Made by a program: the position numbers and the translations under genes
The notes under the pieces: generated by a model
The model's database searches: none
What the model saw: only the letters and a program-made list of their open reading frames with translations
Told to the model about the DNA's origin: nothing
In this document: piece by piece, positions 7,822-49,930 of the stretch
Position numbering within the stretch: position 1 is the stretch's first letter
Layout of the letters: every line of letters begins with the position of its first letter
Origin: Thermodesulfobacteriaceae bacterium
Lineage (GTDB): Bacteria > Desulfobacterota > Thermodesulfobacteria > Thermodesulfobacteriales > Thermodesulfobacteriaceae
DNA: 54,697 nucleotides
Direction: 5' to 3'
Assembly (NCBI GenBank): GCA_015494725.1
Contig: WGAR01000003.1
Span: forward strand, 1 to 54,697

Positions 7822-7850
7822 AAGGTAGGAAGAAGATGTGCTTCTGTCAA
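7822..7850 (-). promoter_or_regulatory. Putative sigma-70 promoter of der-hflX
   Basis: TTGACA-17 nt-TACCTT. Confidence 0.55.
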
Positions 7851-17356: not shown

Positions 17357-17386
17357 GGCGTCACCTCCTTAAGTTATCTAAAATTA

Positions 17387-18547: not shown

Positions 18548-18713
18548 AAAACCCTCCTTTATCCTTGGAAATTAATACTTCCAAAAATGCACACGCAATA
18601 TAGGTTTTAGCAGAATTTTTTAGTCCAGGTCAAATTGAATAGGAGGGGAAGACTAGGGATTGGTGGGATATGGGGTGAAAAAAAGGATTTACCAATGAAT
18701 TTTTTAAAGAATA

Positions 18714-18737
18714 GGGGGCGATATCTCTATCGCCCCC
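18714..18737 (-). terminator. Intrinsic terminator after the multiheme cytochrome gene
   Basis: gggggcgata-tctc-tatcgccccc 10-bp stem followed by TATTCTTT on the minus strand. Confidence 0.7.
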
Positions 18738-18756
18738 CGAATATCGACGATTACGC

Positions 18757-27052: not shown

Positions 27053-27949
27053 TTAAAGTTCCAGCCAGGATTCGGAAAAGATGGTCTTCCCTAAGAGGAC
27101 CCGGGTGGTCTTGTAGATTTCAAGCTCTTTGGGAGAAAGGGTCTTGGGATCGGGTTCGTCTCCGTCCATGATGTCGTGGACCAGTTTTACCCAGTCGGGA
27201 TGTTTGCCCTTGGCTATCTCTACCAGCTCCTGATCATAAACATCCAGAATGGCCGAATGGATCCCGTATTTCATGAGCATCATGAGATAGACCCGATTCA
27301 GATAAGGGCGCAGATGGGTGGCCACCCCGTTAGATACATTGGAAAGCCCCACCGTGCTCTTGGCGCCGGGAGCAATGTCCTGAAGCATGGAAAGAAACTC
27401 CAGCCCCGAAAGGATCTGTTCCGCGCCCAGGGTAATGGGAGTGGCGATGGGATCCACCCAGATCTTTTCGTTGGGAATACCGGCCTCGTTAAGCTTCATG
27501 ATCAGATCCACCGCCAGCGCCGCCCGTTCATTGGCATCCCTGGGCATTCCCTCCGGCCCCCAGAGGAGGGCTATCACCTCGCAACCCAGTTCCGCCGCCA
27601 CCGGGATGAGCTTCTCCATACGCTCGGGCTGAGCGGAGATGGAGTTCATGAGACACCGGGCCGGGTTTTTGGAGGCCTTAAGCCCCGCGGTCATGGCCTC
27701 GGGATTGGTGGTATCCAGAGAGATGGGTACATCCACCGTCTCCTCCACCACCTTTACGATCCAGGCCGCAAGATCCGGCCCGTCTTTTTTGGCCGGACCA
27801 ATGTTGAGATCCAGATAATCCGCTCCCCTCTCCGCCTCCTCCCGGGCCATCTGCTTAATGGGCTCGGGATTCCTCTCCTTCATGGCCGGACCGATACGTT
27901 TGGACATGATGTTGATGCTCTCGGCAATACACAGGACCTGCTGGCTCAT
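27053..27949 (-). CDS. acsE: Methyl-THF:corrinoid/Fe-S protein methyltransferase
   Basis: Pterin-binding TIM barrel: IAESIN, YLDLNIG, ISLDT, MNSIS, WVDP, GLSNVS; position in acs operon. Confidence 0.92.
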   Translation of the reverse strand: MSQQVLCIAESINIMSKRIGPAMKERNPEPIKQMAREEAERGADYLDLNIGPAKKDGPDLAAWIVKVVEETVDVPISLDTTNPEAMTAGLKASKNPARCLMNSISAQPERMEKLIPVAAELGCEVIALLWGPEGMPRDANERAALAVDLIMKLNEAGIPNEKIWVDPIATPITLGAEQILSGLEFLSMLQDIAPGAKSTVGLSNVSNGVATHLRPYLNRVYLMMLMKYGIHSAILDVYDQELVEIAKGKHPDWVKLVHDIMDGDEPDPKTLSPKELEIYKTTRVLLGKTIFSESWLEL

Positions 27950-28383
27950 GCCTCCCTCCTTAAAAAGTTTTTATTTAACCTTTGTAGGATCCTTTCCATG
28001 AGCTCGGCATAACCCTTAAGGCGAGGATACAGGCGTTGAGCCGTCTCCTCCCGATAGGTGTGCGAGGTAAGGTTTCGGCTCCGGAGCATCTCCAGACAGG
28101 CCTCGGTTTCCTCCGGAGAAAGGACCCCGGTCTTAAGGGCCTCCCGAAAGCAGTTTGCCGGTGAAAAACACTCCACTATTTCCCTCTCCCGTAAATAGTC
28201 CTTAAGGGTCTTCCAGAAGATTTCAAAAGTATATTCAAAACGTTGAATGGAGGCATCCCGTACGATAACATATTCCTCACTTAAGGGATCCACCCTGCGC
28301 TCCAGAATCTCTCGCAGACTTTCATAGGCCCGCCAGGCCAGATCCCACCTTTCGCGAAATCGGCTCCTTTCCTTCAGAGCCAC
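27946..28383 (-). CDS. HEPN ribonuclease toxin (HI0074-like nucleotidyltransferase substrate-binding family)
   Basis: DASIQRFEYTFE..WK and RNLTSHTY (RX4HXY). Confidence 0.88.
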   Translation of the reverse strand: MALKERSRFRERWDLAWRAYESLREILERRVDPLSEEYVIVRDASIQRFEYTFEIFWKTLKDYLREREIVECFSPANCFREALKTGVLSPEETEACLEMLRSRNLTSHTYREETAQRLYPRLKGYAELMERILQRLNKNFLRREA

Positions 28384-28661
28384 CTTTCCCCTTCTTTTTG
28401 AATCTTTTCCCGGAGCCCCTCCGGGAGTTCTTCCCAGCCTACTACGTCCACCTCGAAGGGGAAAGTGCTCTCCTCAAGAAATTCCGCCAGCCTTCTGATG
28501 CTTTTTTCCTCTCCTTTCACCGCCAGATCGAAATCCGAAGCCACTCCCGCTCCGCCCCACAGACGGGACCCAAAAAGATAGACCTCTTTTATTCCCTCCT
28601 CCTTTTTTACAAAATCCCCTATCAGACCGCGCAGTTTTTCCTTCCAGGGGTCCTCCTTCAA
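28374..28661 (-). CDS. Minimal nucleotidyltransferase (MNT) antitoxin
   Basis: LFGS-RLWGGAGVAS-DFD (GSX10DXD), VDVV; start uncertain (TTG 28661 overlapping acsC stop, or GTG 28673). Confidence 0.85.
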   Translation of the reverse strand: MKEDPWKEKLRGLIGDFVKKEEGIKEVYLFGSRLWGGAGVASDFDLAVKGEEKSIRRLAEFLEESTFPFEVDVVGWEELPEGLREKIQKEGERWL

Positions 28662-30010
28662 GCCGCCTTCCACTCCTTGAGAAAGCTCGGAAGACCGCTG
28701 GCCTCCCGGGGCCCGATGATGATCTCCCAATCCGGGAGTTCGTCTTCAAGCTCTCCCTTAATTCCCGCCAGATAACCCGGAATGACCAGCTTCCGATGCT
28801 TGACCTTCTCCGCAATTCCGCACTTTTTCACGAATTCGGCGATGGTATCCGCCCCGAATTTACCCGCAGCCCAGGCCGTAAGCACCGAAAGCCCCTCGGT
28901 GTCCTTGATGAGAAGCCAGGAGGGGACCCGACTCCCCTCTACCTCACCCGAAACGATGAAATAGGTGAGGGCGAAGTTACAGGTAATAAGCACCGGAGAA
29001 TTTTCGTCCGGACCATTGATGGGATAGATCCCCTCCTCCACCACCAGCGGTTTTTGCGGATCGGTAAAGATGTTCATCCGCTCCACCAGCAGCGGGAAGA
29101 GCACATCGGCCCGGAAATCGGACATGATGATCATGCCCGCATACTTGGGAATGAGCACCGCGGCCAGGATGGCCTCGGCCAGATATCCCCGGGCGCACCG
29201 ATAGGGAAAGGTAATGGTGGGGAACCCGAAGGGCTTGAAACGCTTTTTGATAGCCGCCCGGCGCACGATCACCTGGTCCTCGTAGAGTTCCCGCACGCTC
29301 CGGGCCCCGGTATCCAGCACCAGGTCCTTAAGCCCCATTTTGAGTAGTTCCTCGGAGATACGGGCCGTTTCCGCCAGATTGTCGCCGCGGACCGCCAGGG
29401 CGGCCTTTTTCTCCTTGGCCACCTGGCCCATTTCCTTAAAGTTGTCCAGGGTAGCGGCATAAAGAAGAGGCCGATGTTCACCACAGAGATCACAGGCCTC
29501 GGAAAGGGTTCCCGGATTCTCGCTTATGAGAACCAGCACCGCTTCCGGACACTCCTCCCGCACCCGGCGCACCAGGGAAAGAAATCCCTCTTTATCCCCG
29601 TTTACCTCCTCCAGGGCCAGGACCTCGGCGTGAAGCTCCACCCCTACCCTTTCCCACCGGAGCTTTCGAAAACTCTCCAGCCTGCGAGCTATCTCCGCCT
29701 CCTCCATATCCGTGGCCAGCCGAAGCCCTAGGGGAACCGGATTCTCAAACCTCTTTTCGTGCCGGAAAAGCACCGTCTCCCCGCCCAGCTTCAGCTGGTG
29801 CTCTCCGCTACCCAGCACCACGGTACGAATGGGCGGGGCCGAGGCCTCGGCGATCTCCTCCTTTACCGCCGGATCTACATGCGGACACTTGTCGATTTCC
29901 GCCTGCCCTGCGGCCACCTTCATGGCAAAGGCCAGGCAGGTGGGAAATCCACAATCCCCACAGTTGGTCTTGGGCAGTTTTTGCATTATCTGAATACCGG
30001 TAAGTCCCAT
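28658..30010 (-). CDS. acsC: Corrinoid iron-sulfur protein large subunit
   Basis: LPKTNCGDCGFPTCLAFA, GGETVLFRHEK, IFTDPQKP, NFALTYF, GLSVLTAWAAGKF. Confidence 0.97.
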   Translation of the reverse strand: MGLTGIQIMQKLPKTNCGDCGFPTCLAFAMKVAAGQAEIDKCPHVDPAVKEEIAEASAPPIRTVVLGSGEHQLKLGGETVLFRHEKRFENPVPLGLRLATDMEEAEIARRLESFRKLRWERVGVELHAEVLALEEVNGDKEGFLSLVRRVREECPEAVLVLISENPGTLSEACDLCGEHRPLLYAATLDNFKEMGQVAKEKKAALAVRGDNLAETARISEELLKMGLKDLVLDTGARSVRELYEDQVIVRRAAIKKRFKPFGFPTITFPYRCARGYLAEAILAAVLIPKYAGMIIMSDFRADVLFPLLVERMNIFTDPQKPLVVEEGIYPINGPDENSPVLITCNFALTYFIVSGEVEGSRVPSWLLIKDTEGLSVLTAWAAGKFGADTIAEFVKKCGIAEKVKHRKLVIPGYLAGIKGELEDELPDWEIIIGPREASGLPSFLKEWKAA

Positions 30011-30023
30011 CGTCCTCCTCCCT

Positions 30024-32246
30024 TTACATCAGGGGTTCCATTTCCACCACGGGATGTTTTACCTTTTCCACCCACTCTTTGACTTCCTGTTCGGTGTTGG
30101 CCACGGTCTCGTCGGCGATCTTGTCCAGCAGGTCCGGGACTCCGAGTTCCTCGGCCCGTTTCTGGAGTTTCTCCCGGAGTTCCTCCTTAAGCATCTTGGG
30201 CATCCAGACCACCCGCTTGAGCCCTCCCTCCGCCAGCAGGAATTTCCGGGAGGTGATGTAATGCTTGGAGACCCCCATGAACCCGGGAGTCACCTGCCCT
30301 CCCCCCACCATTCCGGCCATGGTGGAAAACTTCATTCCCGTGGGAGTCATTCCCAGATAATCCCGGTTCACAATCATGATCCCGTTTACCGAGGGAAGCA
30401 CCGCGGCGATACATTCAAAACATCCGCAGGCGGTCATGGGATCCACCAGGATACTGTAGAGACTCACCCGCTCCACCTTTCCGCGACTGGCCTTCTTTAC
30501 GAACTCGTTGACCCCGCTGAATTGACCCAGCCGCTCGTCCAGAAGCTCTCCCTTTTCGATGGGCTGATTCGGACCGGTGGGATTGAGCTCGTAACAGGCC
30601 TTTCCGTCCAGCCAGTTATAGGCCCCGCACATCCCGATCCGTTCCGGGGTAATCACACACACATGGCTGGGGGCGAAACTCTGACACAGGGTACAGGAAT
30701 AGTAAATATCCACACTTTCGTCGGTCATTCCCGCGATACGGGCATCCCGCTTGGCATAGACCTCTTTGGCCATTTCCAGGACCTTCTTGACCTTGTCCTC
30801 CTCGGTGTAGATGGTCACCTGACACTTATCCACGATGGCCCCGAATTCCTGGCGCATCTTGGCATAGAGAATGTCTCCGATATGCCGGAAGAGGAACCCC
30901 TTTTCCGCCGCGGCCTTGCTTATCCGCAACCACATAATATTTCGCTGCCCCACATGCATGACACCCTGGGCATAGTTAATAAGGTGATGGAACTGCCGTT
31001 CCAGGATGGCCTCAAAGTCCTCCTGCATGTTGGCCCCGGCCACCTCCACCACCACCGCAAAGGGAAGCCGATAGGGCGGCCCCTGAAGCCCGAGCTTTTC
31101 CACCTCGTTTATCTCCGGCCCGATGACCTCGATCTTTCCGTCCTCCACCTCTTCCAGCGGCCTGGAGAGAAGAAGCTCCACCGCCGGGGTGCGTCCACCA
31201 CCGCATTCCAGATAAAGATCGTCCTTGCGCACCCGTTCTCCCTCAAAGGCCGGGGCATAGGCCACGGGAATGTCCAGCTTCACCGTGGTGACCTTAAGAC
31301 CCCGGACCTCAATGGCCCGATCCACGATCTCCTCGTGGGGGACCTTGGACACCACATGCTCGTAAAGGCAGATACCGTAGGGCTTGATCTCCGGCTCATC
31401 CCAGTCGGAAATCACCGGAAAGCCCCAGTTTATGGCCCCGGCTCCGTTGGCGTACCATTCCTCGGAAATAGGGCCGAAGGTGATGACAAAGGCAAAGGTT
31501 CGATCCTTGTTGTAAAGGAGATTTCCCATATAGTCCCCGGGCTTGATGCCTCCGAAGGCCATGGCCACCCGGCAGGCAAATCCGATGGAGAAGACCACCG
31601 AGGTGTAATCCGGGCCGAAGGGAATGAGTCGGGTGGGCCAGCCCAGCTGTACCCCCGCCTCCTTGAGTTGTTCGGCCATCCGCACCCCGTTGGTATCCGC
31701 ATGCATGAACACATAGAGGTTCTTTTCCTGGAGTTCCTGAGCGATCCGGGCGGCGGTTTCCTTGTCCGGTGGGGCCCCCAGGATGGCCGCAAACCCCGGA
31801 GCCGTGCCATCCACAAACTCCACCCCGCGCTTCCGGAAAATCACGTCGTCGGCCGCCCCGAGCCAGATGTTTCCGTTTACGGGCTCCTCGGTCTTAGTGT
31901 AAAAATCCGGGTCCTCCAGATACCGGATGGCCTCAATGATTTCCTCGGCAAAGAAGGTGGCCATACCCGCATCCAGAGCCGGCCCGAGATAAGGGGTCCA
32001 GAGTCTTTCGTCCGGAACCGGAGGAAGAAGTTTCCTTGCCTCCTCCAGCACTTCCCCGCAGTCCCCGAGTTTTTTCACCGGATACCCGAGCATGGCGTAG
32101 ATAATGGGTAAATAGTAGGCGGTGTTGGGGAAGGCGACCTCTTTTTCCTTCCCGAATTTCTTCACCGCCTCTTCATATTTTTCCTGGGCCCGCTCCACGA
32201 TCTTATGGGCCCCGCGAATGGCTTTGGTGGCAATAATCTTAGACAT
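30024..32246 (-). CDS. acsB: Acetyl-CoA synthase
   Basis: FPNTAYYLP, CTLCQSFAPSHVC, PMTACGCFEC A-cluster ligands. Confidence 0.97.
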   Translation of the reverse strand: MSKIIATKAIRGAHKIVERAQEKYEEAVKKFGKEKEVAFPNTAYYLPIIYAMLGYPVKKLGDCGEVLEEARKLLPPVPDERLWTPYLGPALDAGMATFFAEEIIEAIRYLEDPDFYTKTEEPVNGNIWLGAADDVIFRKRGVEFVDGTAPGFAAILGAPPDKETAARIAQELQEKNLYVFMHADTNGVRMAEQLKEAGVQLGWPTRLIPFGPDYTSVVFSIGFACRVAMAFGGIKPGDYMGNLLYNKDRTFAFVITFGPISEEWYANGAGAINWGFPVISDWDEPEIKPYGICLYEHVVSKVPHEEIVDRAIEVRGLKVTTVKLDIPVAYAPAFEGERVRKDDLYLECGGGRTPAVELLLSRPLEEVEDGKIEVIGPEINEVEKLGLQGPPYRLPFAVVVEVAGANMQEDFEAILERQFHHLINYAQGVMHVGQRNIMWLRISKAAAEKGFLFRHIGDILYAKMRQEFGAIVDKCQVTIYTEEDKVKKVLEMAKEVYAKRDARIAGMTDESVDIYYSCTLCQSFAPSHVCVITPERIGMCGAYNWLDGKACYELNPTGPNQPIEKGELLDERLGQFSGVNEFVKKASRGKVERVSLYSILVDPMTACGCFECIAAVLPSVNGIMIVNRDYLGMTPTGMKFSTMAGMVGGGQVTPGFMGVSKHYITSRKFLLAEGGLKRVVWMPKMLKEELREKLQKRAEELGVPDLLDKIADETVANTEQEVKEWVEKVKHPVVEMEPLM

Positions 32247-32264: not shown

Positions 32265-34733
32265 TCAATTTTGTTGCATGAGTTCCTTAATAATTAATTT
32301 AGTTAATTCTATGGCCTTGGGGTGCCTCATGATAAAAAGGTCCCCTCCGGCCAGCGCCAGAGCCACCGAGGTAATGGCCTCCATAAGCACCCCTCTCACC
32401 TCCTGGTCCCCCATGGTCTCGTCGCTGGGAAGCCCCGCTTCCTTGGCCTTCCATACCTCCCGTCCCACGTTACAGATAAAGGGAACCTGAAGTTTATCGT
32501 CCTGAGCGTAAAGGGCCGCCAGACGGATTCGTTCCATAACCGAATAGGTATATTCCAGCCCGTAACCCAGAGCCCCGATGGAGGGGTCCATGAGGATCTT
32601 ATCCAGGGCCACCCCTACGTTCTCTAGAAGGATGTTCAACTGTTTGGCCAGGTTCACATCGATGGGGCTGGAAGCCACCACCGGAAGCCCGTAGCCCATG
32701 GCCGTTGCCCCCAGGGTGCGATGATTGGCCTCCTCCACCGGACCGATCACCGCTCCCCGATCACCTACCACCTCAGCCACCTCGCGCAACACTTCCACAT
32801 CCTTTTCGGCATGTCCCGATCCCCATACGATAAGAGGCACATCCACCGCTCCGGCTACTTTCTCCACCACCTCCCGGGCATGCTGGGCATCCAGATTGAG
32901 ATAGTTGGGGTCGGTACCCATGAGGTAGATGCACAGGGCCTCAGCCCCGTAAGTCTCCACACACTTTCTGGCCCAGGCCGCGGGATCATCCAGCACATCC
33001 GCAAAATATCGAGCTAGACTCTCGGGCCAGTTTTCGGGTTTCACATCCAGGATCTCCATGGCCACCCGCGGTTCGTGTCGCATCTCCCCCTCGAAAAGAT
33101 GGAAGGGAAGCACATTGGTGCCTCCCACCTTGAAGGCCTTTTCCCCTTTCCCGATTTCTACCTCCCGAATGAAAGCCGTCCCCGGTTCCTTATAAAGATC
33201 CTCGGGAAGACCGGCGGCTCGCTCGGAAAGCGGCCGATATTCTCCGGAAAAACTCCCTATCTCCACTCCCTCCGCCGGAGGAGCCGGTTTTTCCTCTACC
33301 GGCGGCTTCTCAGCGGGTTTTTCCTCCCTAACCTCGACCGCGGGCTTCTCCTCGGGTTTCTCCTCTACTGGAGGTTTCTCCTCTACCGCGGGTTTTTCTT
33401 CGACTCGAGCCTCCACCTCCTCCGCGGGCTTTTCCTCTTCCACCTTCTTTTCTTCCACTACCTCTTTCTCTTTTTCTTCCGGTACTTCCTTTACCTCCAC
33501 GGGCTTTTCTTCCACCGGAGGCCGCTCTTCCACCTTCACTTCCACCCGCGGAACCTCCGGCACCTCCGCCGGCACCACCTCTCCGCCCAGGAGGGCCCGC
33601 TCCAGGCGAGCCAGACTATCGTGGAGCAGGTTCACCCCCTCGCGCAGAGACTCTATGCTGGAACGCACGGTGGAAAAGACCTCCTTTACCGCCTCCACCG
33701 GAATCTCCACCTTCGGCGGGGCCTCTTCCGGCACCTCCTCTGCCGGAGGAGCCACCACCTCCACCCGCTCCACGGGCTTTTCCACCTCCACCACAACGGC
33801 CGGACGGACCTCGGCTTCCAGCGGACGCGGATGGAGACCGGCCCGTTTCACGATCTCCGGTACCGCCTCCTCCCACTCGATGGCCATAATATGCACCCCG
33901 GCCACCCCGGGTATCTCCCGCACCTGCTGGATGATTTCCACCGCCAGATTGATGCCCTCCTCCCGCTTGTCCTTGGCCTCCTTCATGCGCTTGAGAATTT
34001 CATCCGGTACATCCAGTCCCGGCACGAAATATTTCATATAGCGGGCCATCCCGAAGGACTTGGGGGGAGTGATTCCCGCCAGGATATAGGCCTTCTCCGT
34101 AAGTCCCATATCGCGGGCCATTTCCATGAATTTCCGGAAACGTTCCACGTTATAGACGATCTGGGTCTGGATGAATTCCGCTCCGGCGGCGATCTTCTTG
34201 GCCAGGCGCTTGACCCGAAACTCAAAGGGATCGGCAAAGGGATTGGCCGCTGCCCCCAGGAAGAACTCCGGACGGGCCCCGGTGAGATCCTCCCCGCACA
34301 TGAACTTCCCTTCGTCCCGCATCCTCCGAACCATGTCCAGCAATTGAATGGAATCGAGATCAAAGACCCCCTTGGCCTCGGGATGATTTCCGAATTTCTG
34401 ATGGTCCCCGGTAATACAGAGGAGATTTTTCACTCCCAGGGCCGCCGCCCCCAGAAGATCGGCCTGGATCCCGATCCGGTTCCGGTCGCGACAGGTCATC
34501 TGGATGACCGGCTCCACCCCCTCGGCCATCACCAGCACCGCCGAGGCGATGGAGGACATCCTTACAATGGCCGTTTGACAATCGGTGATGTTGGCCGCAT
34601 CCACATAGCCCTTAATCAACCGGGCCTTCTTCCGTACCACCTCTCCGTCGGCGCTCTTGGGCGGACCGATTTCCGCGGTAACCGCGAAATGTCCCTCGGA
34701 AAGGACCCGATGTAAATGGCTTCTCGGTTCCAC
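32265..34733 (-). CDS. metF-acsD: Fusion of methylene-THF reductase MetF (N-terminal) and corrinoid Fe-S protein small subunit AcsD (C-terminal) via a PEVK-rich linker
   Basis: N-term EIGPPK, ANITD, TCRDRNR, TGDH, IQTQ, GVHIM; C-term VGG..VLPFHLFEG, SPIDVNLAKQLN, GYGLEY.YSVMERIR, MRHP; single 822-aa ORF. Confidence 0.93.
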   Translation of the reverse strand: MEPRSHLHRVLSEGHFAVTAEIGPPKSADGEVVRKKARLIKGYVDAANITDCQTAIVRMSSIASAVLVMAEGVEPVIQMTCRDRNRIGIQADLLGAAALGVKNLLCITGDHQKFGNHPEAKGVFDLDSIQLLDMVRRMRDEGKFMCGEDLTGARPEFFLGAAANPFADPFEFRVKRLAKKIAAGAEFIQTQIVYNVERFRKFMEMARDMGLTEKAYILAGITPPKSFGMARYMKYFVPGLDVPDEILKRMKEAKDKREEGINLAVEIIQQVREIPGVAGVHIMAIEWEEAVPEIVKRAGLHPRPLEAEVRPAVVVEVEKPVERVEVVAPPAEEVPEEAPPKVEIPVEAVKEVFSTVRSSIESLREGVNLLHDSLARLERALLGGEVVPAEVPEVPRVEVKVEERPPVEEKPVEVKEVPEEKEKEVVEEKKVEEEKPAEEVEARVEEKPAVEEKPPVEEKPEEKPAVEVREEKPAEKPPVEEKPAPPAEGVEIGSFSGEYRPLSERAAGLPEDLYKEPGTAFIREVEIGKGEKAFKVGGTNVLPFHLFEGEMRHEPRVAMEILDVKPENWPESLARYFADVLDDPAAWARKCVETYGAEALCIYLMGTDPNYLNLDAQHAREVVEKVAGAVDVPLIVWGSGHAEKDVEVLREVAEVVGDRGAVIGPVEEANHRTLGATAMGYGLPVVASSPIDVNLAKQLNILLENVGVALDKILMDPSIGALGYGLEYTYSVMERIRLAALYAQDDKLQVPFICNVGREVWKAKEAGLPSDETMGDQEVRGVLMEAITSVALALAGGDLFIMRHPKAIELTKLIIKELMQQN
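33275..33570 (-). repeat. Low-complexity (V)EEKP peptide repeats in the MetF-AcsD linker
   Basis: VEEKPAVEEKPPVEEKPEEKPAVEVREEKPAEKPPVEEKPAPP; boundaries approximate. Confidence 0.85.
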
Positions 34734-34746: not shown

Positions 34747-35421
34747 TTATTTATCCATCTTGAGATCTTCCCTTATCCTGTCCCGGGGGCCACCGTGTCC
34801 GGCCGGACGCCAGTCCTTGGCCGGAAAGAAATTCATGAGACGATCCAGCTCTCCCCGGGCCGAAAGCCTCTCGTAAATCTGATGCCAGACACAGGGAACC
34901 TCCGGTCGGATCTCACAGCGCCCTCCCTGGGACCCCCCGCAGGGACCGTTGAGCAGATTCTTGGCGCACCGGGCAATGGGACACAACCCCCCGGTGAGAT
35001 CCAGGATACAATCCCCACATCCCCGGCACTTCTCCTGCCATTCTCCTAGGGCCGTGTTGGCCCCGTAAAAGGTGGTATCCACCCCGGGATAGACCCGGAT
35101 CTCGGGGAAGAGATCGGCAATGAGGTTCACCCCCACCCCGCAGGCCATAGAAACCACCGCCTCATATTTATCCGCCCATTCTCGCAGCGGCGCCAGATAC
35201 TCCGGATCACACTGCCGGATGAGGGTGGCCTCTCCGGTCTCAAGCGGCCGACCGGCCCTCTTCCGGGCCAGCCTCAGGGCCGCCGCCATGGTCTCCACCT
35301 CCCGATCCCCTCCCGCCGAACAGATGGCCACACACCCCCGACACCCCAGAACCAGAACCCGCTGATAAGGCTCTATGGCCTCCAGTACTCGGCGTATGGG
35401 TTTGCGTTCTGCAACGATCAT
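34747..35421 (-). CDS. metV: Methylene-THF reductase small Fe-S subunit MetV
   Basis: MIVAERKP, GC.GC..IC, RQC, ACGVG, CRGCGDC, CPIARC.K.LLNGPCGG, CVW. Confidence 0.93.
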   Translation of the reverse strand: MIVAERKPIRRVLEAIEPYQRVLVLGCRGCVAICSAGGDREVETMAAALRLARKRAGRPLETGEATLIRQCDPEYLAPLREWADKYEAVVSMACGVGVNLIADLFPEIRVYPGVDTTFYGANTALGEWQEKCRGCGDCILDLTGGLCPIARCAKNLLNGPCGGSQGGRCEIRPEVPCVWHQIYERLSARGELDRLMNFFPAKDWRPAGHGGPRDRIREDLKMDK

Positions 35422-35433: not shown

Positions 35434-35814
35434 TCAGGACTTAGACTTCATAGTTAAAGCTATTTCAAAAGTTTTCTTTACCTCCTCCATGAAAGGCCCG
35501 GTATCCAGTCGAGGCAGAAAGGCAAAACGCACCCGTTCCGGTTCCAGCCCGATCTCCTCAAGGATCTTCCGGGCCCCCTGGACCTTCTTTTCCGCCCGCT
35601 GACTCCCGGACAGATTGTGACAGCTTTCCGCCTCGCATCCGGCCACCAGCACCGCCTCCGCCCCTTCCTCGAAGGTGCGCAGGATATCCGCCACCTCGAT
35701 ATGTCCGGAACAGGGATAACGACGCACGATAACCGTGCCCGGAATCCCCTGGAAATCCTCCTCTCCGGCCTGATTGGTGTAATGGCAACAGAGCACCCCG
35801 ATGGTTACAGCCAT
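35434..35814 (-). CDS. mvhD: Second MvhD-like [2Fe-2S] protein (all-Cys, divergent)
   Basis: LCC, PCSG, AGCEAESCH..G, LEEIGLEPERV. Confidence 0.85.
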   Translation of the reverse strand: MAVTIGVLCCHYTNQAGEEDFQGIPGTVIVRRYPCSGHIEVADILRTFEEGAEAVLVAGCEAESCHNLSGSQRAEKKVQGARKILEEIGLEPERVRFAFLPRLDTGPFMEEVKKTFEIALTMKSKS

Positions 35815-36362
35815 TAACTCACACCCCCGTATCTCAGGATTTCAAATTCCGCCGCGGGCTTGAGCTCGATGGCCCGGGCCGGGCATTCCCGCACGCATAT
35901 CCCGCAGGCATGACACTTGGCCGGATCGATCACCGCGTACCCTTCCTCACGGATACTCGGAGCCCCGAAGGGACACACCCGCACACAGGTCAGACATACG
36001 ATACACTTTCCGGGATTTACCCGGGCCAGCCTTCCGGCCTCAAACAGGGTCTCCTCGTTGGCCAGACCGGATCGCAGGGCATATTCCCGCAGCGCCCGAA
36101 TTACCTCCGCCGGCTTTACCTCCATGGGGCATACCGGGACGCAGCTCTGGCACTGGGAACAGTGCCAGAGGATGGGGGTCCCGAAGAGTTTTTCCCGCAG
36201 GCCCAGCACCGTGGCATGCACGATGACCCGGGGATCAAAGTCCCGGCGTACCTTCTTTACCGGACAGATCCCCGAACAGGCTCCGCAGCGAAAACACTGA
36301 CTGTAAGTCTCCGGCAACCCCTCCACTTCGGGTATCCATTCCCTGGCTAATTCCAGTTTCAT
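35814..36362 (-). CDS. HdrC-like domain fused to a 2x[4Fe-4S] ferredoxin domain
   Basis: CFRCGACSGICP, LWHCSQCQSCVPVCP, CIVCLTCVRVCP, CHACGICVRECP. Confidence 0.85.
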   Translation of the reverse strand: MKLELAREWIPEVEGLPETYSQCFRCGACSGICPVKKVRRDFDPRVIVHATVLGLREKLFGTPILWHCSQCQSCVPVCPMEVKPAEVIRALREYALRSGLANEETLFEAGRLARVNPGKCIVCLTCVRVCPFGAPSIREEGYAVIDPAKCHACGICVRECPARAIELKPAAEFEILRYGGVS

Positions 36363-37078
36363 GACTTTTTCCCCTTTTCCATGGCTTCAAGAATCCCCGC
36401 CAATTCCTGAGGACTGGCTCCGGTGGCCTCGGCCAGCGCATCCACACTCTGAGGCCCTTGGGAGAGCAATTCCCGGACCTCGCTTTCCAGGATCCGTTTA
36501 CGTATCTGAGGCACCAGCTTCTTCTCCACCAACTGGGCTATGTTCTCCGGACTGTAATCGCCCAGCTTCTTTATTTCCCGGGCCAAATTACCATATTGCG
36601 CCCGGAATTGCATGTTCGAGCAGAGCTTCCGCGCCGCCTCCAGCCGGAACTGTAGCCGTTCCCGGGAAAGCCCCTCGGCCTCCCCCAGGGGGCCCAGCTT
36701 CCGGATCCGCTCCGTAAAATCGGTGAGCAGCTGCACAAAGCGCGGCCCCTCCGCGGCCGAGGCCCAGTCGATATAAAAACGATCCCTTTTCACCCCCACG
36801 GTGTCCAGGATCCGCCTTACCGTTTCAGCCATGACCAGAGCTTCGAAATTACCAGACTGGTAATGGCACTCCCCGAGGTGTCACCCACCCACGAAGACCC
36901 CGTCGGAACCTACATAGAAGGCCTCCACCACGAAACGAGGATCCATCCTTCCGGTACACATGATCCGGATGACCCGGTTATTGGGAGGGTAACTGAACCG
37001 GGCCACCCCGGCCGAATCCGCCGCCGCATAGCAGCACCAGTTACACAGAAAACTTAATATTCTGGGTTCAAACCCCAT
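36359..37078 (-). CDS. mvhD: Selenocysteine-containing MvhD with C-terminal extension (239 aa, Sec66)
   Basis: ORFs 36881-37078 and 36359-36832 are in frame; UGA 36883-36881 reads GG-U-HLGECHYQSGN (MvhD motif GCH.GDCHY); FLCNWC, MCTGR, WASAAEG. Confidence 0.92.
36848..36864 (-). promoter_or_regulatory. SECIS-like hairpin of mvhD
   Basis: AUUACCA-GUC-UGGUAAU starting 16 nt after UGA. Confidence 0.75.
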
Positions 37079-37090
37079 CGTAACCCCTCC

Positions 37091-40000
37091 TTAGGCCGCT
37101 TCTTTTTCTGCTTCTTTTTCAGTTTCCTGAGCTTCCTCCAGGCCGAAGGCCCGGATCTGTTCCAGGATGGCCTCGTCGGTAAAGCCCCCCAGGCTTATGG
37201 CAAACACCGGGCAATGGGAGCCGCAGACACCGCATCCCTTGCAGGCCGCGGAAATCACCTGGGCCTTACGCCGTTTATCCACCTTGACCATCTCGATGGC
37301 ACTGTAGGGACAGAGCGCCGCACAGATGCCGCAGCCGATACATTTCTTCTGATCCACCGAGGACACAATGGGCGGAACCTCCACGAACCCCTTGGCCAGA
37401 GGCACCACCGCCTTGGCTGCCGCGGCCCGGGCCTGGGCCAGGATCTCGGCAAGGGGCTTGGGCCCATGCGCCAGCCCGCACACATAGACCCCATCCACCG
37501 CCACCTCTACCGGCTTGAGCTTTACATGGGCCTCAAGGATAAACCCCTCCGGGGTAAGCGGGGTCTTAAGGATCTGGGCCACGGGATTTTCCTTATCCGC
37601 CTCGATCCCTACGGAAAGGACCACCAGATCCGCAGGGATTTCCATCTCTTCCTTTAAAAGGGCATCGTAGGTCCGGACCACCACCCCCCGGCCCTTCTTT
37701 TCCACCCGGGGGCGGCGTTCCGGAGTATAGCGTAAAAAGACCACCCCGCGCTTCCGGGCCTCCCGGTAAAGCTCTTCATAGAACCCATAGGTACGCATAT
37801 CGCGATAAAGGACGATTACCTCCCCGTCGGGATGCAGATCCTTAAAACGCAGGGCATTTTTCACCGCCTGCTGACAGCAGAGTTTGCTGCAATGAGGGAG
37901 TTCCTCCCCGCGTGAGCCGGCACACTGAATCATTACCACCCGTTTGACCTTCCCCAGCGAGCGTTTCCCCCGCGAAAGCTTTTCCTCAAACTCAAGCTGG
38001 GTCACCACCTTGGGACTCTCCCCGTAGAGATAACCGGAGGGACGATGTTCCCGGCCCCCGGTAGCCACCACCACCACCCCGTGATTGATGACCTCGGAGC
38101 CCGCCTGGGTACGCACCGTGGAGGTAAAGTTCCCCACATACCCGGAGATATTCTCCACACTGGCCGAGGTATAAACCCGGATACGGGGATGCTTTTCCAC
38201 CCTGCGAATGAGATCCTTTAGGATCTTCTGCGGGTCTTCCCCTTCGGCCAGAAACTTTACCCGCCGAAGATTTCCTCCCAGCTCCGGCTCCCGTTCCACC
38301 AGATAGACTTCATATCCCTGTTCGGCAATGGAAAGCGCCGCAGCCATTCCCGCCGCTCCGCCTCCCACCACCAGGGCCCCCGGAGTAACCTCGACCTTCT
38401 GTAACTCCAGAGGCCGAAGTCTCCGGGCCTTGGCCACCGCCATACGCACCTGATCCATGGCCTTGCGGGTGGCAGCCTCGGGATCGTCGGCGTGCACCCA
38501 GGCGCACTGGTCCCGGATGTTGGCCATCTCCACCAGGGCCAGGTTGAGCCCGGCCTCCCGCAGGGTCTCCTGGAAGAGAGGCTCATGGGTGCGGGGACTG
38601 CAGGCTGCAATCACCAGGCGGTTAAGCTTGTGCTCCCGGATGATCTCCTTGAGCCTCTCCAGCGAATCCTGGGCGCAGGAATAGACCGTGGTGTCGGCAT
38701 AGACCACCCCCGGAAGCTGGGCTGCGTATTCCTTGACCCTTTCCACATCCACCACTCCGGCAATGTTCACCCCGCAGTGGCAGACAAAGACCCCCACACG
38801 AGGAGGAAGAGAAAGGAGATCCTGGTCCTCCGGGGGAAACTCCTTGGCCACCTGGTCTTTGCCGCGAGCCTCGGCCAGCAATTCCGAAACCTTGGCCGCC
38901 GCCCCGCTGGCCTGCATCACGCTTTCCGGAATGTCCTTCGGCCCCTGAAAGGCCCCGGCCACGTAGATCCCGGGCTTGGCGGTGAGGGGATCCGCCACCG
39001 AGGTCCGGGCGAAACCGAAGGGATTAAGTTCAATCCCGAATCTCTGGGCCAGTTCTTCCGCCCCGGCCGGGGCCGAAAGCCCCACCGAAAGCACCACCAG
39101 ATCGAAAAGTTCCCGGTGGACCTCTCCGTCCTCGGTCACATAGGTGAGCCCCAGCCGTCCGGAAACCTCCTCCACCTTGGGCACCCGGGCATAGACCGTG
39201 CGCAGTCCGTATTTTTCCACCGCCCGCTCAAAGGCCGCGTCAAAGCCCTTGCCCTGGGTGCGCACATCCATGAAAAAGAGGGTAATCTCGGCCTCAGGCG
39301 CATGCTCCTTGAGCATGGAGGCCTCTTTCATGGCGTACATGCAGCAGACCGAAGAACAGAAAGGCCTTCCGCAGGAGACATCCCTCGAACCCACGCACTG
39401 AAGGAAGGCGATCTTCCGGGGATGCGAAAGATCCGAGGGCCTTAGGATCTCCCCTCCACTGGGCCCGGAAACGCACATCAGGCGCTCGATCTCCAGACTG
39501 GTCATCACATCCGGATAGATTCCGTAGCCGTACTTCTCAAGCGCCGCCTCCGGCACCTCACCGAACCCCGGAGTCAGCACCACGGCCCCCACCTCAAGCT
39601 CCCGCACCTCGGGCTTCTGGGAGAAGTCTATGGCCTTGGGCCCGCACACATTGGTGCAGATCATGCAGGTCTCGTGGTTTAAGTGCAGGCAGCGTTCCTC
39701 GTCGATGTAATAGGCCGTGGGCACGGCCTGGGGGAAGTCGATCCGCGCCGCCCGGGTAAAGTCCAGCCTCTCGTTATATTCATCCACCGCCTCCCGCGGA
39801 CAATACTGCATACACTGCCCGCAGGCGGTACATTTATCCGGATCGATGTAGCGCGGGCGAATCTTCACCCGGGCCTTGAAGTTCCCCGGCCTTCCCGAAA
39901 GCGCCTCCACCTCGGCCAGGGTCAGGATCTCAATGTTGGGAGACCGACCGGCCTCCACCATCTTGGGCGCCAGTATTCAGATACTGCAATCGTTGGTGGG

Positions 40001-40153
40001 GAAGGTCTTATCCAGCTTGGCCATTACGCCCCCGATGGAGGCCTTCTTCTCCACCAGATAGACGTAATAGCCCAGATCCGCGAGATCCAGGGCCGCCTGG
40101 ATCCCGGCGATCCCTCCGCCCACCACGAGGACCTTTCCGGATTTTTTAGCCAT
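37091..40153 (-). CDS. hdrA: Large selenocysteine-containing HdrA with two FAD modules (1020 aa, Sec59)
   Basis: True start ATG 40153 (AAGGAGG SD) [17 protein letters not shown]...[20 protein letters not shown] 39979-39977, in frame with ORF 37091-39961; second GGGAAG module; [26 protein letters not shown]. Confidence 0.94.
39939..39956 (-). promoter_or_regulatory. SECIS-like hairpin of hdrA
   Basis: GGAGGCC-GGUC-GGUCUCC starting 20 nt after UGA. Confidence 0.78.
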
Positions 40154-40174: not shown

Positions 40175-42223
40175 TTAAGCCGCCTTCTTTTCCTCCCCTT
40201 CCGGCGAAACCCTGAGGGACACCGGACCGAAACAGCCCAGCCCGTGGAAGGGACTGGTGACCTTGGGGCTTTCCAGCGCCCGCCGCATGGCCATATCGTA
40301 AAGGACTCTGGGCTTGGGCTTATCGATCCCCAGGGCCTTTCTCTTATTCTTAATGTGATCGATCATGATGGAAGCAAATTCACTGGCGCTTCGGGCCACC
40401 CGCCAGCCGGCCCCGAAGATGCGCTCCATCTCGTGGAAAAGAAAATCCGTGGCCACCTGGCTTTTAAGCGTGGGGAAATCCGGCCCGAAGACCACCGTGG
40501 CCCCGGAAGCCACAAAGTACTGGCCGATGGTGATGGCCTTCTCACTCATCCACTGCGGAGCCGAACCGATGACCGGAAGATCGCTTATATCCTCTCCCAG
40601 TCCTCCGGTATTCACCATTTCGGTTGCGGCGATAAGGATCCGGCTATTGTCCACACAGGAACCCATATGGAGCACCGGCGGGCACCCTACGGCCTCAAGC
40701 ACCTCCCGCAGACTGTCCCCGGCCATCTCCGCGGCCTCGGGCCTGAGGAGTCCGGCCCGGCCCATACCGGTGGCGGCACAGCCCGTGGTGAGCACCAGCA
40801 CATTATTGGCGATGAGCTCCTTGGCCAGCTCCACCTGGACCTCCTCGGTCACCCGGAAGTTATCACACCCCACGATGGCCGCCACTCCCAGGATCTTTCC
40901 GTTAATAATGTTTTCGTTTAAGGGCTTATAGGAGGCCCGGAAACGCCCTCCCAGCATGTAGAGGATGGTCTCGTGGCTGAAGCCCACCACCACATCCACG
41001 GAATGATCCGGTATGTTCACCCGGGCCTTGTCCCGTTTGGGAAACCGGGCTATGGCCTCGCGCAGGATCTGTTTGGCACAATCAAGGGCCTTCCGGGCAT
41101 CAAATTCTATATGCGTGGAGCCCTCCATTCGGGCCCGGGGATTGGTGGTGATCACCACGGTGTGGAAATGTTTGGCCACCTCTACCACATTCTGCATGAT
41201 ACACTGCACATCCACCACCACCGCCTCAAGGGCCCCGGTGGCAATGGCCGCCTCCTGCTGGAGAAAACTTCCGGCCACCGGGATTCCCCGCCGCATGAGG
41301 ATTTCGTTTCCGGTACAGCAGATCCCGGCGAGATTCACCCCTTTGGCCCCCACCTTCTTGGCTTCCTCCACGATCTCCGGGTCGCTCGCCGCTATGGCCA
41401 GGGCCTCGGCCAGCACCGGCTCGTGCCCGTGGACAGCCACATTGACCATATCCTCTCGGATCACACTAAGCCCGATGTTCACCCGGGCCTTGATGGGGCC
41501 GGGATTGCCGAACATGAGATCCTGGAACTCGGTAGCCACCATAGACCCGCCCCACCCGTCGGCCAGGGCCGTACGGGCGCAGGCCATGAAGATATTGCGA
41601 TGGTCCTGATCCACTCCGATGGTGGTGCGATGGGTAAGCTCCACCACCTCGCGATCCACTCCCCTCGGCCACACCCCGAGTTCCTTCCAGAGCTGCTTCC
41701 GTTTTTCCGGAGCCCGATTCAATAACGGGATCTCTCCCTCCTGCTGCCCGAAGATCCTGAGGGCCGCCTCGGCCATCTCCTTGAGAAGTTCCTGCTCCTC
41801 CTTATCCGGATCCAGCCCCAAAGCCTGCGCCACCACCCGGAGTTTTCTCTTATCCTTGACCTCAAAAGGAGTCTCTCCGTGCACGGTCTCATAAAAATCG
41901 ATGGCCACCTGGCGGCCGTGATCCGAGTGGGCCGAGGCCCCTCCGGCCACCATGCGACCAAAGTTTCGGGCCACCACCGTGGCTGCGCTGGCTCCGCAGA
42001 CCCCGCGAAGCTCCTCCACGCCCTCCACCACCTGACAGGGCCCCATATTACAGACCCGGCAGCAGGTTCCCCCCTTACCGAAAAGACAGGGGGTGGTCCC
42101 CCTCCTTTCCACCCGGGCCGGAGTGGTCAGCACCTCGTCTCCCAGACGTTCATAAATGATCTGGGCCGTGGCATTCTGCACCCGGGGCGGACTCTTTTTC
42201 CTGGATCTGGCCCTGGTATCCAT
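40175..42223 (-). CDS. cooS: Anaerobic carbon monoxide dehydrogenase catalytic subunit (CooS/AcsA)
   Basis: CCRVCNMGPC, HSDHGR, HGHEP, GICCTGNE, DVQC, VGCDN, TTGCA, GSCVDNSR, SEKA. Confidence 0.97.
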   Translation of the reverse strand: MDTRARSRKKSPPRVQNATAQIIYERLGDEVLTTPARVERRGTTPCLFGKGGTCCRVCNMGPCQVVEGVEELRGVCGASAATVVARNFGRMVAGGASAHSDHGRQVAIDFYETVHGETPFEVKDKRKLRVVAQALGLDPDKEEQELLKEMAEAALRIFGQQEGEIPLLNRAPEKRKQLWKELGVWPRGVDREVVELTHRTTIGVDQDHRNIFMACARTALADGWGGSMVATEFQDLMFGNPGPIKARVNIGLSVIREDMVNVAVHGHEPVLAEALAIAASDPEIVEEAKKVGAKGVNLAGICCTGNEILMRRGIPVAGSFLQQEAAIATGALEAVVVDVQCIMQNVVEVAKHFHTVVITTNPRARMEGSTHIEFDARKALDCAKQILREAIARFPKRDKARVNIPDHSVDVVVGFSHETILYMLGGRFRASYKPLNENIINGKILGVAAIVGCDNFRVTEEVQVELAKELIANNVLVLTTGCAATGMGRAGLLRPEAAEMAGDSLREVLEAVGCPPVLHMGSCVDNSRILIAATEMVNTGGLGEDISDLPVIGSAPQWMSEKAITIGQYFVASGATVVFGPDFPTLKSQVATDFLFHEMERIFGAGWRVARSASEFASIMIDHIKNKRKALGIDKPKPRVLYDMAMRRALESPKVTSPFHGLGCFGPVSLRVSPEGEEKKAA

Positions 42224-42284
42224 AATGTTTCAACCTCCTGCAATGTTTATTGATTCTTAGTCTAAACCACTTCTGGAAGAACGA

Positions 42285-43187
42285 CTAGCCCACCTCACAG
42301 GGGAGTCCGGCCCAGAGCTTGGCCGCCTCCACCGTGTTTTTCATGAGCATGGTAATGGTCATGGGCCCCACCCCTCCGGGAACCGGGGTAATGGCCGAGG
42401 CCTTTTCCTTCACCGCGTCGAAATCCACATCCCCGCAAAGGATGGCCTTACCCTCCGGAGTGGTGCCGATCCGGTTCACCCCCACATCGATGACCACCGC
42501 TCCCTCCTTGACCATATCCGCGGTAATGACCTTGGGACGCCCGGCAGCCACGATGAGGATATCCGCCCGGCGGGTATGGGCAGCCATATCGCGGGTTCCG
42601 GTATGACATACGGTAACCGTGGCGTTACCCACAGGCTTCCTTTTCTGAAGGAGAAGATTGGCCACGGGTTTGCCCACGATGTTGCTCCGCCCCACCACCA
42701 CCACATCGGCCCCGTCCACCTGGACCTGAGCCCGCTCAAGCATCACCAGAATTCCATGAGGGGTGCAGGGCAGGAAACAGGGCTCTCCGATGACCATCTT
42801 CCCCACGTTTACCGGGTGGAAACCATCCACATCCTTCCGGGGATCAATGGCATAAATGATCCTGCGTTCATTGATGTGCTTGGGAAGGGGAAGCTGCACC
42901 AGTATCCCGTGGATCTTTTCGTCCTTATTGTATTTGTCGATCAGGGCCAGAAGTTCGCTTTCACTGACCTCCTCGGGTAGGTTTTCCTGGACCGAATAGA
43001 ACCCCAGATCCTTGGCCGTACGCTGTTTGGCCGTAACGTAAGAGATCGAGGCCGGATTTTCTCCCACCAGGATAGTCACCAGACCGGGAGTAACCCCATG
43101 TTTTTCCTTGAGTTCCTGAACCTCTTTCCTTAGTTCTTCCCGAATTTGCTGAGAAATCTCTTTACCGCTGATAATCCTGGCCGACAT
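42285..43187 (-). CDS. folD: Bifunctional methylene-THF dehydrogenase/cyclohydrolase
   Basis: GILVQLPLP, KDVDGFHP, PCTPHG, GRSNIVGKP, TPVPGGVGPMT. Confidence 0.97.
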   Translation of the reverse strand: MSARIISGKEISQQIREELRKEVQELKEKHGVTPGLVTILVGENPASISYVTAKQRTAKDLGFYSVQENLPEEVSESELLALIDKYNKDEKIHGILVQLPLPKHINERRIIYAIDPRKDVDGFHPVNVGKMVIGEPCFLPCTPHGILVMLERAQVQVDGADVVVVGRSNIVGKPVANLLLQKRKPVGNATVTVCHTGTRDMAAHTRRADILIVAAGRPKVITADMVKEGAVVIDVGVNRIGTTPEGKAILCGDVDFDAVKEKASAITPVPGGVGPMTITMLMKNTVEAAKLWAGLPCEVG

Positions 43188-43220
43188 CACATACCTCCCC
43201 TCTGGGATTTGGAAACTATT

Positions 43221-43236
43221 TGCAAAAAACAGACCA
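43221..43236 (-). promoter_or_regulatory. Putative sigma-54 promoter of the folD-cooS-hdr-met-acs-fdh operon
   Basis: TGGTCTGTTTTTTGCA (GG-N10-GC); predicted +1 near 43210, just upstream of the GGAGG SD of folD. Confidence 0.68.
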
Positions 43237-43293
43237 TAACATACCTTCTCCTAACCCCTTAGTCTAGCGTGCTTTTCCGGAACCAACAAAACT

Positions 43294-43322
43294 CGGGGGT
43301 GAGGAAATTCTCCCCACCCCCG
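43294..43322 (-). terminator. Terminator-like hairpin after fhs
   Basis: CGGGGGTGGGGA-GAATT-TCCTCACCCCCG followed by AGTTTTGTT on the minus strand. Confidence 0.7.
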
Positions 43323-43337
43323 GAGAAAATTTCCGCT

Positions 43338-48408: not shown

Positions 48409-48443
48409 TTTTTCCTCCCTTTAGGAGTATTCAAAAACAAGAA

Positions 48444-49889: not shown

Positions 49890-49930
49890 GATTGCACCTC
49901 CTCATTTTAAAACTTTAAAGTTCAACTCTT

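What the first reader, a model, noticed from the sequence alone, without database searches (positions are those of the whole stretch)
32265..34733. MetF tethered to the corrinoid protein subunit AcsD by a ~200-aa PEVK arm with a central amphipathic helix
Seen: one 822-aa ORF with MetF (about 34733-33830), a Pro/Glu/Val/Lys-rich segment, a ~35-aa amphipathic helix (VKEVFSTVRSSIESLREGVNLLHDSLARLERALL), EEKP repeats, then AcsD. Known: MetF makes methyl-THF, which AcsE transfers to AcsCD; in characterised acetogens these are separate proteins. Inference: the fusion links the reductase to the methyl carrier. The linker could act as a flexible arm and the helix as an oligomerisation or docking site, giving a Wood-Ljungdahl super-complex (Hdr-Mvh-MetVF-AcsCD-AcsE-ACS). 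I cannot tell from here how widespread or how well described this fusion is.
Basis: partly seen in the sequence, partly recalled or inferred. Interest (0 to 1): 0.85.

Follow-up and report, generated by a model that had tools for sequence, protein, structure and literature searches.

The report
MetF-AcsD fusion with self-bundling linker helix
One real gene in this bacterium's CO2-fixation cluster joins the enzyme that makes methyl-folate (MetF) to the small subunit of the corrinoid methyl carrier (AcsD) through a 200-residue linker that is predicted to be floppy apart from a central helix predicted to bundle several copies together; the fusion is common in related sulfur bacteria and already named in one genome paper, and many relatives, though apparently not this lineage, likely also make a short AcsD form from a second start inside the gene.

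Summary
The fusion is real: one 822-codon frame with MetF, a 203-residue linker (69% Pro/Glu/Val/Lys) and AcsD. Contigs from two studies span the linker in frame, and 120 of 120 top homologs share the layout. It is not new. Melton et al. 2016 list an 'mthfr/acsD fusion', and this scan found it, and the internal start, before on other genomes. I found no functional study.

What I add: (1) The helix has a clean heptad repeat and is predicted to form an antiparallel four-copy bundle (0.63, best control 0.01). That resembles the archaeal CdhD coiled-coil scaffold, which a 2026 preprint says bacterial AcsD lacks. (2) In a quick tree, fused AcsDs form one group. Seven split relatives nest inside it and restart exactly at the helix, so the helix belongs to AcsD. 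(3) A ribosome-binding site plus ATG sits at the helix start in 48 of 48 Desulfobulbia-like genes and 17 of 19 sister-genus genes, in different codon phases. It is not conserved in this window's lineage.

Best reading: a scaffold that clusters corrinoid proteins and tethers MetF. Direct channelling is unlikely, because AcsE, not AcsD, takes the methyl group. No mechanism is shown experimentally.

The parts
32265..34733 (-). metF-acsD fusion gene, 822 aa
34740..34745 (-). Shine-Dalgarno AGGAGG, 6 nt before the GTG start
   Evidence: sequence
33828..34733 (-). MetF (methylene-THF reductase) barrel, residues 1-302; E21, D110 and Q191 invariant in 118 of 118 aligned homologs
33699..33827 (-). Arm 1, residues 303-345, 77% P/E/V/K, predicted disordered
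33771..33789 (-). Possible internal start (GGAGGTG, 9 nt spacer, GTG = V321); unsupported: strong in 4 of 7 close relatives and reached by 18% of synonymous shuffles
33591..33698 (-). Amphipathic heptad helix, residues 346-381 (core V349 F353 V356 I360 L363 V367 L370 L374 L377 L381; small residues at 359, 366, 373, 380; G366 invariant in 45 of 45 close homologs); predicted antiparallel four-copy bundle
33249..33590 (-). Arm 2, residues 382-495, 82% P/E/V/K, 8 EEKP, net -19, predicted disordered; carries TPR inserts in many relatives
32268..33248 (-). AcsD (small subunit of the corrinoid Fe-S protein) with short conserved lead-in; barrel from about residue 515
34747..35421 (-). metV (DUF5981/MTHFR_C)
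35434..40153 (-). hdrA-like (UGA at 39977-39979), mvhD (UGA at 36881-36883), hdrC-like and second mvhD-like genes; no HdrB-type hit among the 16 cluster proteins scanned
40175..45101 (-). fhs, folD and CO dehydrogenase (acsA)
27053..32246 (-). acsB (30024-32246), acsC (28658-30010), inserted nucleotidyltransferase/HEPN-like pair, acsE (27053-27949)

Best explanation
The gene encodes a true MetF-linker-AcsD fusion whose central helix is predicted to self-associate into an antiparallel bundle, likely gathering several corrinoid Fe-S proteins (AcsC/AcsD) on long flexible arms and holding MetF next to them as a loose Wood-Ljungdahl scaffold. Shown: the reading frame, both domains, invariant MetF active-site positions, conservation of the helix, its retention on AcsD after gene fission, and a conserved internal Shine-Dalgarno plus ATG in two relative lineages. 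Inferred: MetF, with MetV and probably HdrA/MvhD, makes methyl-THF near the clustered carriers. AcsE, a separate protein, still moves the methyl group to the cobalt on AcsC, and AcsB receives it. The benefit would be local concentration and fixed stoichiometry. In lineages with the internal start, short helix-AcsD chains would co-assemble with full-length chains, giving fewer MetF than AcsD. In this window's lineage the start is not conserved, so the ratio would be 1:1.
For: Frame and domains. 120 of 120 homologs are fused and keep a central helix. Heptad pattern with invariant G366; AlphaFold2 helix 346-381 between low-confidence arms. Four-copy model: score 0.63, best of 3 controls 0.01; the mark was reached by 20 of 30 solved pairs and 1 of 23 solved monomers; runs agree in at least 91% of contacts; pLDDT at least 76; contacts such as 353-374, 356-370 and 360-371 are antiparallel. 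Quick AcsD tree: 60 fused plus 7 split rows are separated from 40 unfused rows at SH-aLRT 100, and the 7 split rows form one nested group (94). All 7 split AcsDs begin with Met directly before the helix, and their MetF frames are only 304-308 codons stop to stop where complete. Internal start: Gly codon GGA in 48 of 48 against 338 of 2840 background, and 1 of 48 and 1 of 38 at two control glycines; 24 of 24 named records agree and may overlap that set; 17 of 19 sister-genus genes have GAG-NNN-NNN-ATG. Precedent: the archaeal CdhD N-terminal helix forms hexa- to octamers (bioRxiv 10.64898/2026.07.07.736967, sections 9-12 read).
Against: No biochemical, proteomic-peptide or structural data exist for this protein in what I could search. 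Amphipathic helices can score as bundles. The complex job used my own alignment and four copies, unlike its calibration, and tested no hetero-partner. Homology between the Thermodesulfobacteria-type helix and the Desulfobulbia-type hairpin is not shown (hhalign probability 2.7% and 27%). Five short-linker relatives keep only about half the helix. Many relatives fix carbon with a plain 313-345 aa AcsD, so the scaffold is not essential. The tree is the quick version, midpoint-rooted, with 60 of my 100 fusion sequences and no one-clade test. For the Desulfobulbia-like set the anti-SD energy exceeds synonymous shuffles only modestly (-7.7 vs -6.9 kcal/mol). Kin are not independent.
Confidence: 0.6

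Rival explanations
1. The helix is a docking site for another subunit (AcsE, AcsA/AcsB, MetV or Hdr), not a self-association element; the fusion is a simple tether.
For: The helix is retained on AcsD after fission, which fits any AcsD-side docking role. No hetero-partner was modelled. The archaeal preprint proposes that the disordered CdhD region also binds CODH and ACS tails.
Against: The self-bundle model passes its controls, with a hydrophobic heptad core and small residues at the close-packing positions.
Confidence: 0.2
2. In this organism too most AcsD is made or left as a separate chain (internal GTG at 33773, or proteolysis in the arms), so the tether matters little and the fusion mainly couples expression.
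For: There is a strong SD-like motif 9 nt before V321 (-14 kcal/mol). An internal start is conserved in sister genera. One fission has occurred in the family. In Desulfurivibrio dismutans proteomics the fused protein's riBAQ (0.93-1.06e-3) is under half that of AcsC (2.08-2.53e-3) (PMC12142623 Table S1 rows).
Against: The motif is strong in only 4 of 7 close relatives, no column is conserved across 19 sequences of this lineage, and 18% of synonymous shuffles reach the same energy. The riBAQ gap is small for that method, and MetV is at 1.56-1.58e-3, which does not suggest scarce MetF.
Confidence: 0.12
3. The tether serves direct chemistry: methyl-THF is channelled from MetF to AcsD without AcsE, or low-potential electrons from Hdr-Mvh-MetV reactivate the cobalt in place of the activator RACo.
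For: acsE and metV are absent from the acs cluster in the Desulfobulbia-like loci.
Against: AcsE matches in 98 of 121 genomes of that class, about the same set as the 99 with a MetF or AcsD match. MetV is present in 5 of 5 and RACo in 5 of 5 genomes tested, including this one for RACo. Arms of about 43 and 114 low-confidence residues cannot form a channel (inference).
Confidence: 0.06
4. The fusion is an assembly or read-through artefact, or a neutral recent loss of a stop codon.
For: Adjacent but separate metF and acsD occur in the same gene order in relatives (L037-L039, L235, L237).
Against: Contigs of two studies span the linker in frame. 71 of 121 genomes in one class have a single near-full-length match in one 861-945 aa frame. 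Fused forms group together in the tree.
Confidence: 0.02

Closest known systems
mthfr/acsD fusion of Desulfurivibrio alkaliphilus AHT2 (DaAHT2_0827) (Melton et al. 2016, PMC5016858; I saw the carbon-fixation section, the Fig. 3 legend and the abbreviation list)
   Same: Same domain order, and the named D. alkaliphilus protein P0106 is among the 120 homologs.
   Different: The paper only names the fusion. That lineage has a helical hairpin, Ala/Lys/Glu-rich arms and a conserved internal start, and in the loci I fetched metV, hdr and acsE are not beside it. This window has a single long heptad helix, PEVK arms, no conserved internal start and the full cluster.
Archaeal CdhD N-terminal coiled-coil scaffold of Methanosarcina acetivorans ACDS (Zimmer et al., bioRxiv 10.64898/2026.07.07.736967; abstract and sections 9-12 read)
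   Same: A helix embedded in a disordered region N-terminal to the small CoFeSP subunit, forming an antiparallel oligomer, with catalytic modules on flexible arms.
   Different: The archaeal scaffold was shown experimentally (hexa- to octamer); ours is only predicted. It has no MetF attached and works with a CdhC lacking domain A1, whereas this cluster has a full AcsB. The preprint states that the region is not conserved in bacterial AcsD and that no bacterial CoFeSP oligomer has been reported. Homology was not tested; convergence is my inference from plain AcsDs being the nearest unfused relatives.
Bacterial AcsD of Carboxydothermus hydrogenoformans (2H9A, 2YCL, 4C1N), Moorella thermoacetica (4DJD) and 9FZY (organism names recalled)
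   Same: Full-length sequence match of the barrel, E 1.5e-82 to 8e-67.
   Different: Those are stand-alone 309-323 aa chains with no linker, helix or MetF.
MetFV-HdrABC-MvhD methylene-THF reductase gene cluster of Moorella thermoacetica type (passages in PMC5736913 and PMC10553843)
   Same: metV, metF, mvhD and hdrA/hdrC-like genes are adjacent.
   Different: MetF is fused to AcsD. There are two mvhD-like genes, no HdrB-type hit among the 16 cluster proteins scanned, and in-frame UGA codons in HdrA and MvhD.

Membership tests
MetF / MTHFR (PF02219) | Profile match above the curated cut-off over the whole barrel | tested here: met
   146 bits vs cut-off 24, profile positions 2-287 of 287
MetF / MTHFR (PF02219) | Catalytic Glu, Asp and Gln positions (roles recalled from E. 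coli and human MTHFR) | tested here: met
   E21, D110 and Q191 align with the Glu, Asp and Gln of human MTHFR 6FCX and are invariant in 118 of 118
MetF / MTHFR (PF02219) | FAD binding and methylene-THF reduction; identity of the electron donor | not testable with these tools
   needs an enzyme assay
AcsD/CdhD small CoFeSP subunit | Family profile match and likeness to solved AcsD | tested here: met
   Pfam CdhD 148 bits vs 24.8 and NF003376 374 vs 280 pass; NF040759, NF003377 and TIGR00381 score below their cut-offs; PDB AcsD matches at E 1.5e-82
AcsD/CdhD small CoFeSP subunit | Encoded with acsB, acsC and acsE; only copy in the genome | tested here: met
   one AcsD hit in G000, which is 86% complete
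mthfr/acsD fusion (Melton 2016) | MetF and AcsD in one frame, related to the D. alkaliphilus protein | tested here: met
   P0106 among the hits; fused AcsDs group together at SH-aLRT 100 in a quick tree
Internal-start form of the fusion | Conserved Shine-Dalgarno plus in-frame start at the helix | tested here: not met
   No conserved start column in 19 sequences of this window's lineage; met in 48 of 48 and 17 of 19 relatives of other lineages
Archaeal CdhD oligomerisation scaffold | Helix within a disordered region N-terminal to the barrel | tested here: met
   AlphaFold2, (prediction)
Archaeal CdhD oligomerisation scaffold | Antiparallel homo-oligomer of six to eight copies | tested here: inconclusive
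   A four-copy antiparallel model passes controls; six or eight copies cannot be modelled; no experiment
Archaeal CdhD oligomerisation scaffold | Sequence homology of the helix to CdhD residues 45-68 | not tested
   No archaeal CdhD was fetched
MetFV-HdrABC-MvhD complex | hdrA, hdrB, hdrC, mvhD, metV and metF together | tested here: not met
   No HdrB-type (CCG) hit among the 16 cluster proteins scanned; the rest of the genome was not searched for hdrB

The most novel reading that the evidence does not exclude
Thermodesulfobacteria and Desulfobulbia have independently evolved a bacterial counterpart of the archaeal CdhD scaffold. A helix bundle on AcsD clusters several corrinoid proteins and carries MetF (and through it the MetV-Hdr-Mvh module) on flexible arms. 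In many lineages a conserved internal start in the same gene yields long and short chains that set the MetF-to-carrier ratio, and one lineage has split the gene exactly at that start.
Probability: 0.4. Interest if true: 0.75.

Novelty: new variant of a known kind. Interest (0 to 1): 0.48.

Why it matters
The Wood-Ljungdahl pathway in sulfur-disproportionating and related bacteria is usually assumed to be built like that of acetogens. A 2026 preprint contrasts an oligomeric archaeal scaffold with a non-oligomeric bacterial corrinoid protein. This family would be a counter-example, and it is cheap to test with the same helix-GFP assay and with cultured relatives. Databases mostly name only one half (AcsD or MetF) of these proteins, which hides the architecture. 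The fusion itself is not a discovery: it is in print and common.

Tried and rejected
Artefact: rejected. Bypass of AcsE or MetV: rejected, both genes lie elsewhere in those genomes. Substitution for RACo: rejected, RACo is present in 5 of 5 genomes. Internal start in this window's gene: not supported. Profile homology between the two helix types: weak. Expression: no RNA holder listed, which is no evidence either way. D. dismutans riBAQ values: inconclusive. Two 499 and 939 aa 'split' cases (L184, L185) break at runs of N and were dropped. The careful tree did not finish, and no one-clade test was run. Literature: 10 full-text searches. Term look-ups in PMC4911364, PMC9676032, PMC7117923, PMC12142623, PMC12827605, PMC10553843 and PMC5736913 showed no mention of this fusion (passages only). 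Pierce et al. 2008, which Melton cites for the MLMS-1 cluster, is not held and may describe it. Figures, bioRxiv supplements (Extended Data Fig. 1B of the preprint) and most subscription papers were not visible.

Full report
OBSERVATION. The minus-strand frame 34733..32265 gives 822 aa without a stop and starts at GTG 6 nt after AGGAGG. Pfam places MTHFR at 7-299 and CdhD at 524-765. The C-terminal 308 aa match solved AcsD chains end to end (E 1.5e-82). The 203-residue linker is 69% P/E/V/K with 8 EEKP motifs. AlphaFold2 on a 118-sequence alignment gives two barrels, a helix at 346-381 and low-confidence arms on both sides (pTM 0.50). Contigs from two studies run across the whole linker with in-frame indels only; one run may be the source sample. 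The four best-holding runs are hydrothermal-vent metagenomes of one study, and the closest named proteins are from Thermosulfurimonas marina and T. dismutans (86% and 83%). The gene sits in a complete Wood-Ljungdahl cluster: fhs, folD, CODH, hdrA, mvhD, hdrC-like, mvhD-like, metV, metF-acsD, acsB, acsC, acsE, fdh.

SPREAD. All 120 listed homologs have both domains; named ones include Thermodesulfatator, Caldimicrobium, Thermosulfuriphilus, Dissulfurirhabdus, Desulfobulbaceae and Desulfurivibrio. In a phylum sample, 196 of 301 genomes matched AcsD. Of the 150 rows listed, 18 (this genome included) were MetF-AcsD fusions that I confirmed in fetched loci. The other forms seen in fetched loci were plain AcsD, AcsD with a long C-terminal tail, and five AcsD-CODH fusions. 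In the class of G278, which I call Desulfobulbia-like from its linker motif, 71 of 121 genomes gave one near-full-length match in a single frame. A quick maximum-likelihood tree of 107 AcsD barrels (60 of my 100 fusion sequences, 7 split, 40 unfused; midpoint root) separates the fused and split rows from all unfused rows at SH-aLRT 100. Relatives with the same gene order but separate metF and a plain acsD exist, so one fusion of neighbouring genes is the simplest history. That is an inference, not a tested root.

THE HELIX. A central helix is present in 120 of 120 homologs, 105 by pattern and 15 by eye, although linkers range from 109 to 450 aa and often hold TPR or coiled-coil inserts. Here it has five clean heptads, small residues at 359, 366, 373 and 380, and a glycine invariant in 45 of 45 close homologs. 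Four copies folded as an antiparallel bundle: score 0.63, best of three controls 0.01; the mark was reached by 20 of 30 solved pairs and 1 of 23 solved monomers; contact agreement at least 91%; pLDDT at least 76. This supports binding but does not show it, and the job differed from the calibration. Seven same-family genomes have metF and acsD split. They form one nested group (support 94), and in all seven AcsD starts with Met directly before the helix, so the helix travels with AcsD. Against over-reading: the single-helix and hairpin types are not convincingly homologous by profile (probability 2.7% and 27%, versus 99% between the two hairpin groups), and five short-linker relatives keep about half the helix.

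INTERNAL START. In 48 of 48 distinct Desulfobulbia-like fusions, the helix begins at an ATG preceded by GGA-GAR-NNN-NNN. The Gly codon is GGA in all 48, against 338 of 2840 glycines elsewhere in the same genes and 1 of 48 and 1 of 38 at two conserved control glycines. The site has less predicted mRNA structure than its flanks (-3.0 versus about -10 kcal/mol) and than synonymous shuffles (-4.5). It also resembles the GGAG motif before the true acsB starts. Its anti-SD energy beats shuffles only modestly (-7.7 versus -6.9). 24 of 24 named records show the same codon, with possible overlap. In sister genera of this window's family, 17 of 19 long-linker genes have GAG-NNN-NNN-ATG, 16 of them with a G before it, so GGAG is written in another codon phase (anti-SD -9.5 versus -5.0 in shuffles). 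In nine Dissulfuri-like genes the site is clear in five, weak in one and absent in three. In this window's own lineage (19 sequences) and in five short-linker genes no start is conserved at the helix. The window's best candidate, GTG at 33773, is strong in 4 of 7 close relatives and is matched by 18% of synonymous shuffles. Kin are not independent, and no product has been observed.

MECHANISM. MetF active-site positions are invariant. By established knowledge (recalled), methyl-THF is a stable diffusible carrier that AcsE passes to the cobalt on AcsC, so a tether to AcsD gives proximity and not a channel. AcsE, MetV and RACo are retained in the genomes tested, which removes the bypass and reactivation ideas. 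The most likely picture is a helix bundle clustering several corrinoid proteins with MetF on flexible arms (0.6). Rivals are a hetero-docking helix (0.2), mostly separate products here too (0.12), direct chemistry (0.06) and artefact (0.02).

WHAT IS KNOWN. Melton et al. 2016 (PMC5016858) list an 'mthfr/acsD' fusion for D. alkaliphilus without studying it. Passages of seven other genome or pathway papers did not mention it. Zimmer et al. 2026 show that an N-terminal CdhD helix oligomerises archaeal CoFeSP, and state that the region is not conserved in bacterial AcsD and that no bacterial CoFeSP oligomer has been reported. This protein works like that scaffold in layout; membership of that family was not shown. 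Earlier notes of this scan report the fusion in at least eight other genomes and the internal start in three. I had reached both readings before those look-ups.

VERDICT. Real, widespread, named in print and, in what I could search, functionally unstudied: a new variant of a known kind. The added value is the predicted AcsD-borne bundle, the fission at the internal start and the lineage contrast in that start. Interest 0.48.

Noticed in passing
window 24522-24524, 36881-36883, 39977-39979 (minus strand): Three in-frame UGA codons join apparent ORF halves in formate dehydrogenase, MvhD and HdrA, as expected for selenocysteine. The real starts of hdrA and mvhD are at about 40153 and 37078. ARAGORN found no tRNA-Sec in the 86%-complete genome.
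   Followed up: partly
window 27946-28730 (minus strand): A nucleotidyltransferase plus HEPN-like gene pair (toxin-antitoxin-like) is inserted between acsC and acsE, inside the carbon-fixation cluster.
   Followed up: no
L031, L032, L035, L148, L156: AcsC and AcsE are fused (776-821 aa) in four genomes with split metF/acsD and in one near relative that still has the MetF-AcsD fusion; probably one event.
   Followed up: partly
L051-L055: AcsD-CODH fusions (1111-1146 aa) in two separate tree positions. In L053-L055 the linker has a helix preceded by Met and an SD-like stretch, and a similar helix ends the C-tailed AcsD of L084.
   Followed up: partly
L056-L070, L083, L085, L086: Many unfused AcsDs of this phylum carry a 110-240 aa Ala/Glu/Lys/Pro-rich C-terminal tail ending in a short conserved helix-like motif, so appended tethers on AcsD recur.
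   Followed up: no
L033, L034, L153-L155: Short-linker fusions (109-118 aa) occur in clusters where the CODH position holds a shorter protein (470-630 aa) with only a partial CODH match plus a ferredoxin-like end, and hdrA is not adjacent.
   Followed up: no
window 47047-54133 (minus strand): Four consecutive ORFs (453, 481, 1062 and 288 aa) with signal-peptide-like starts and no Pfam hit at E 1e-15.
   Followed up: no
window 16595-20169 and 7847-9403 (minus strand): A five-CxxCH cytochrome gene followed by NrfD-like and 4Fe-4S genes, and a RACo-family gene, lie in the same window. A second, distant metF/metV pair lies on contig C186.
   Followed up: no
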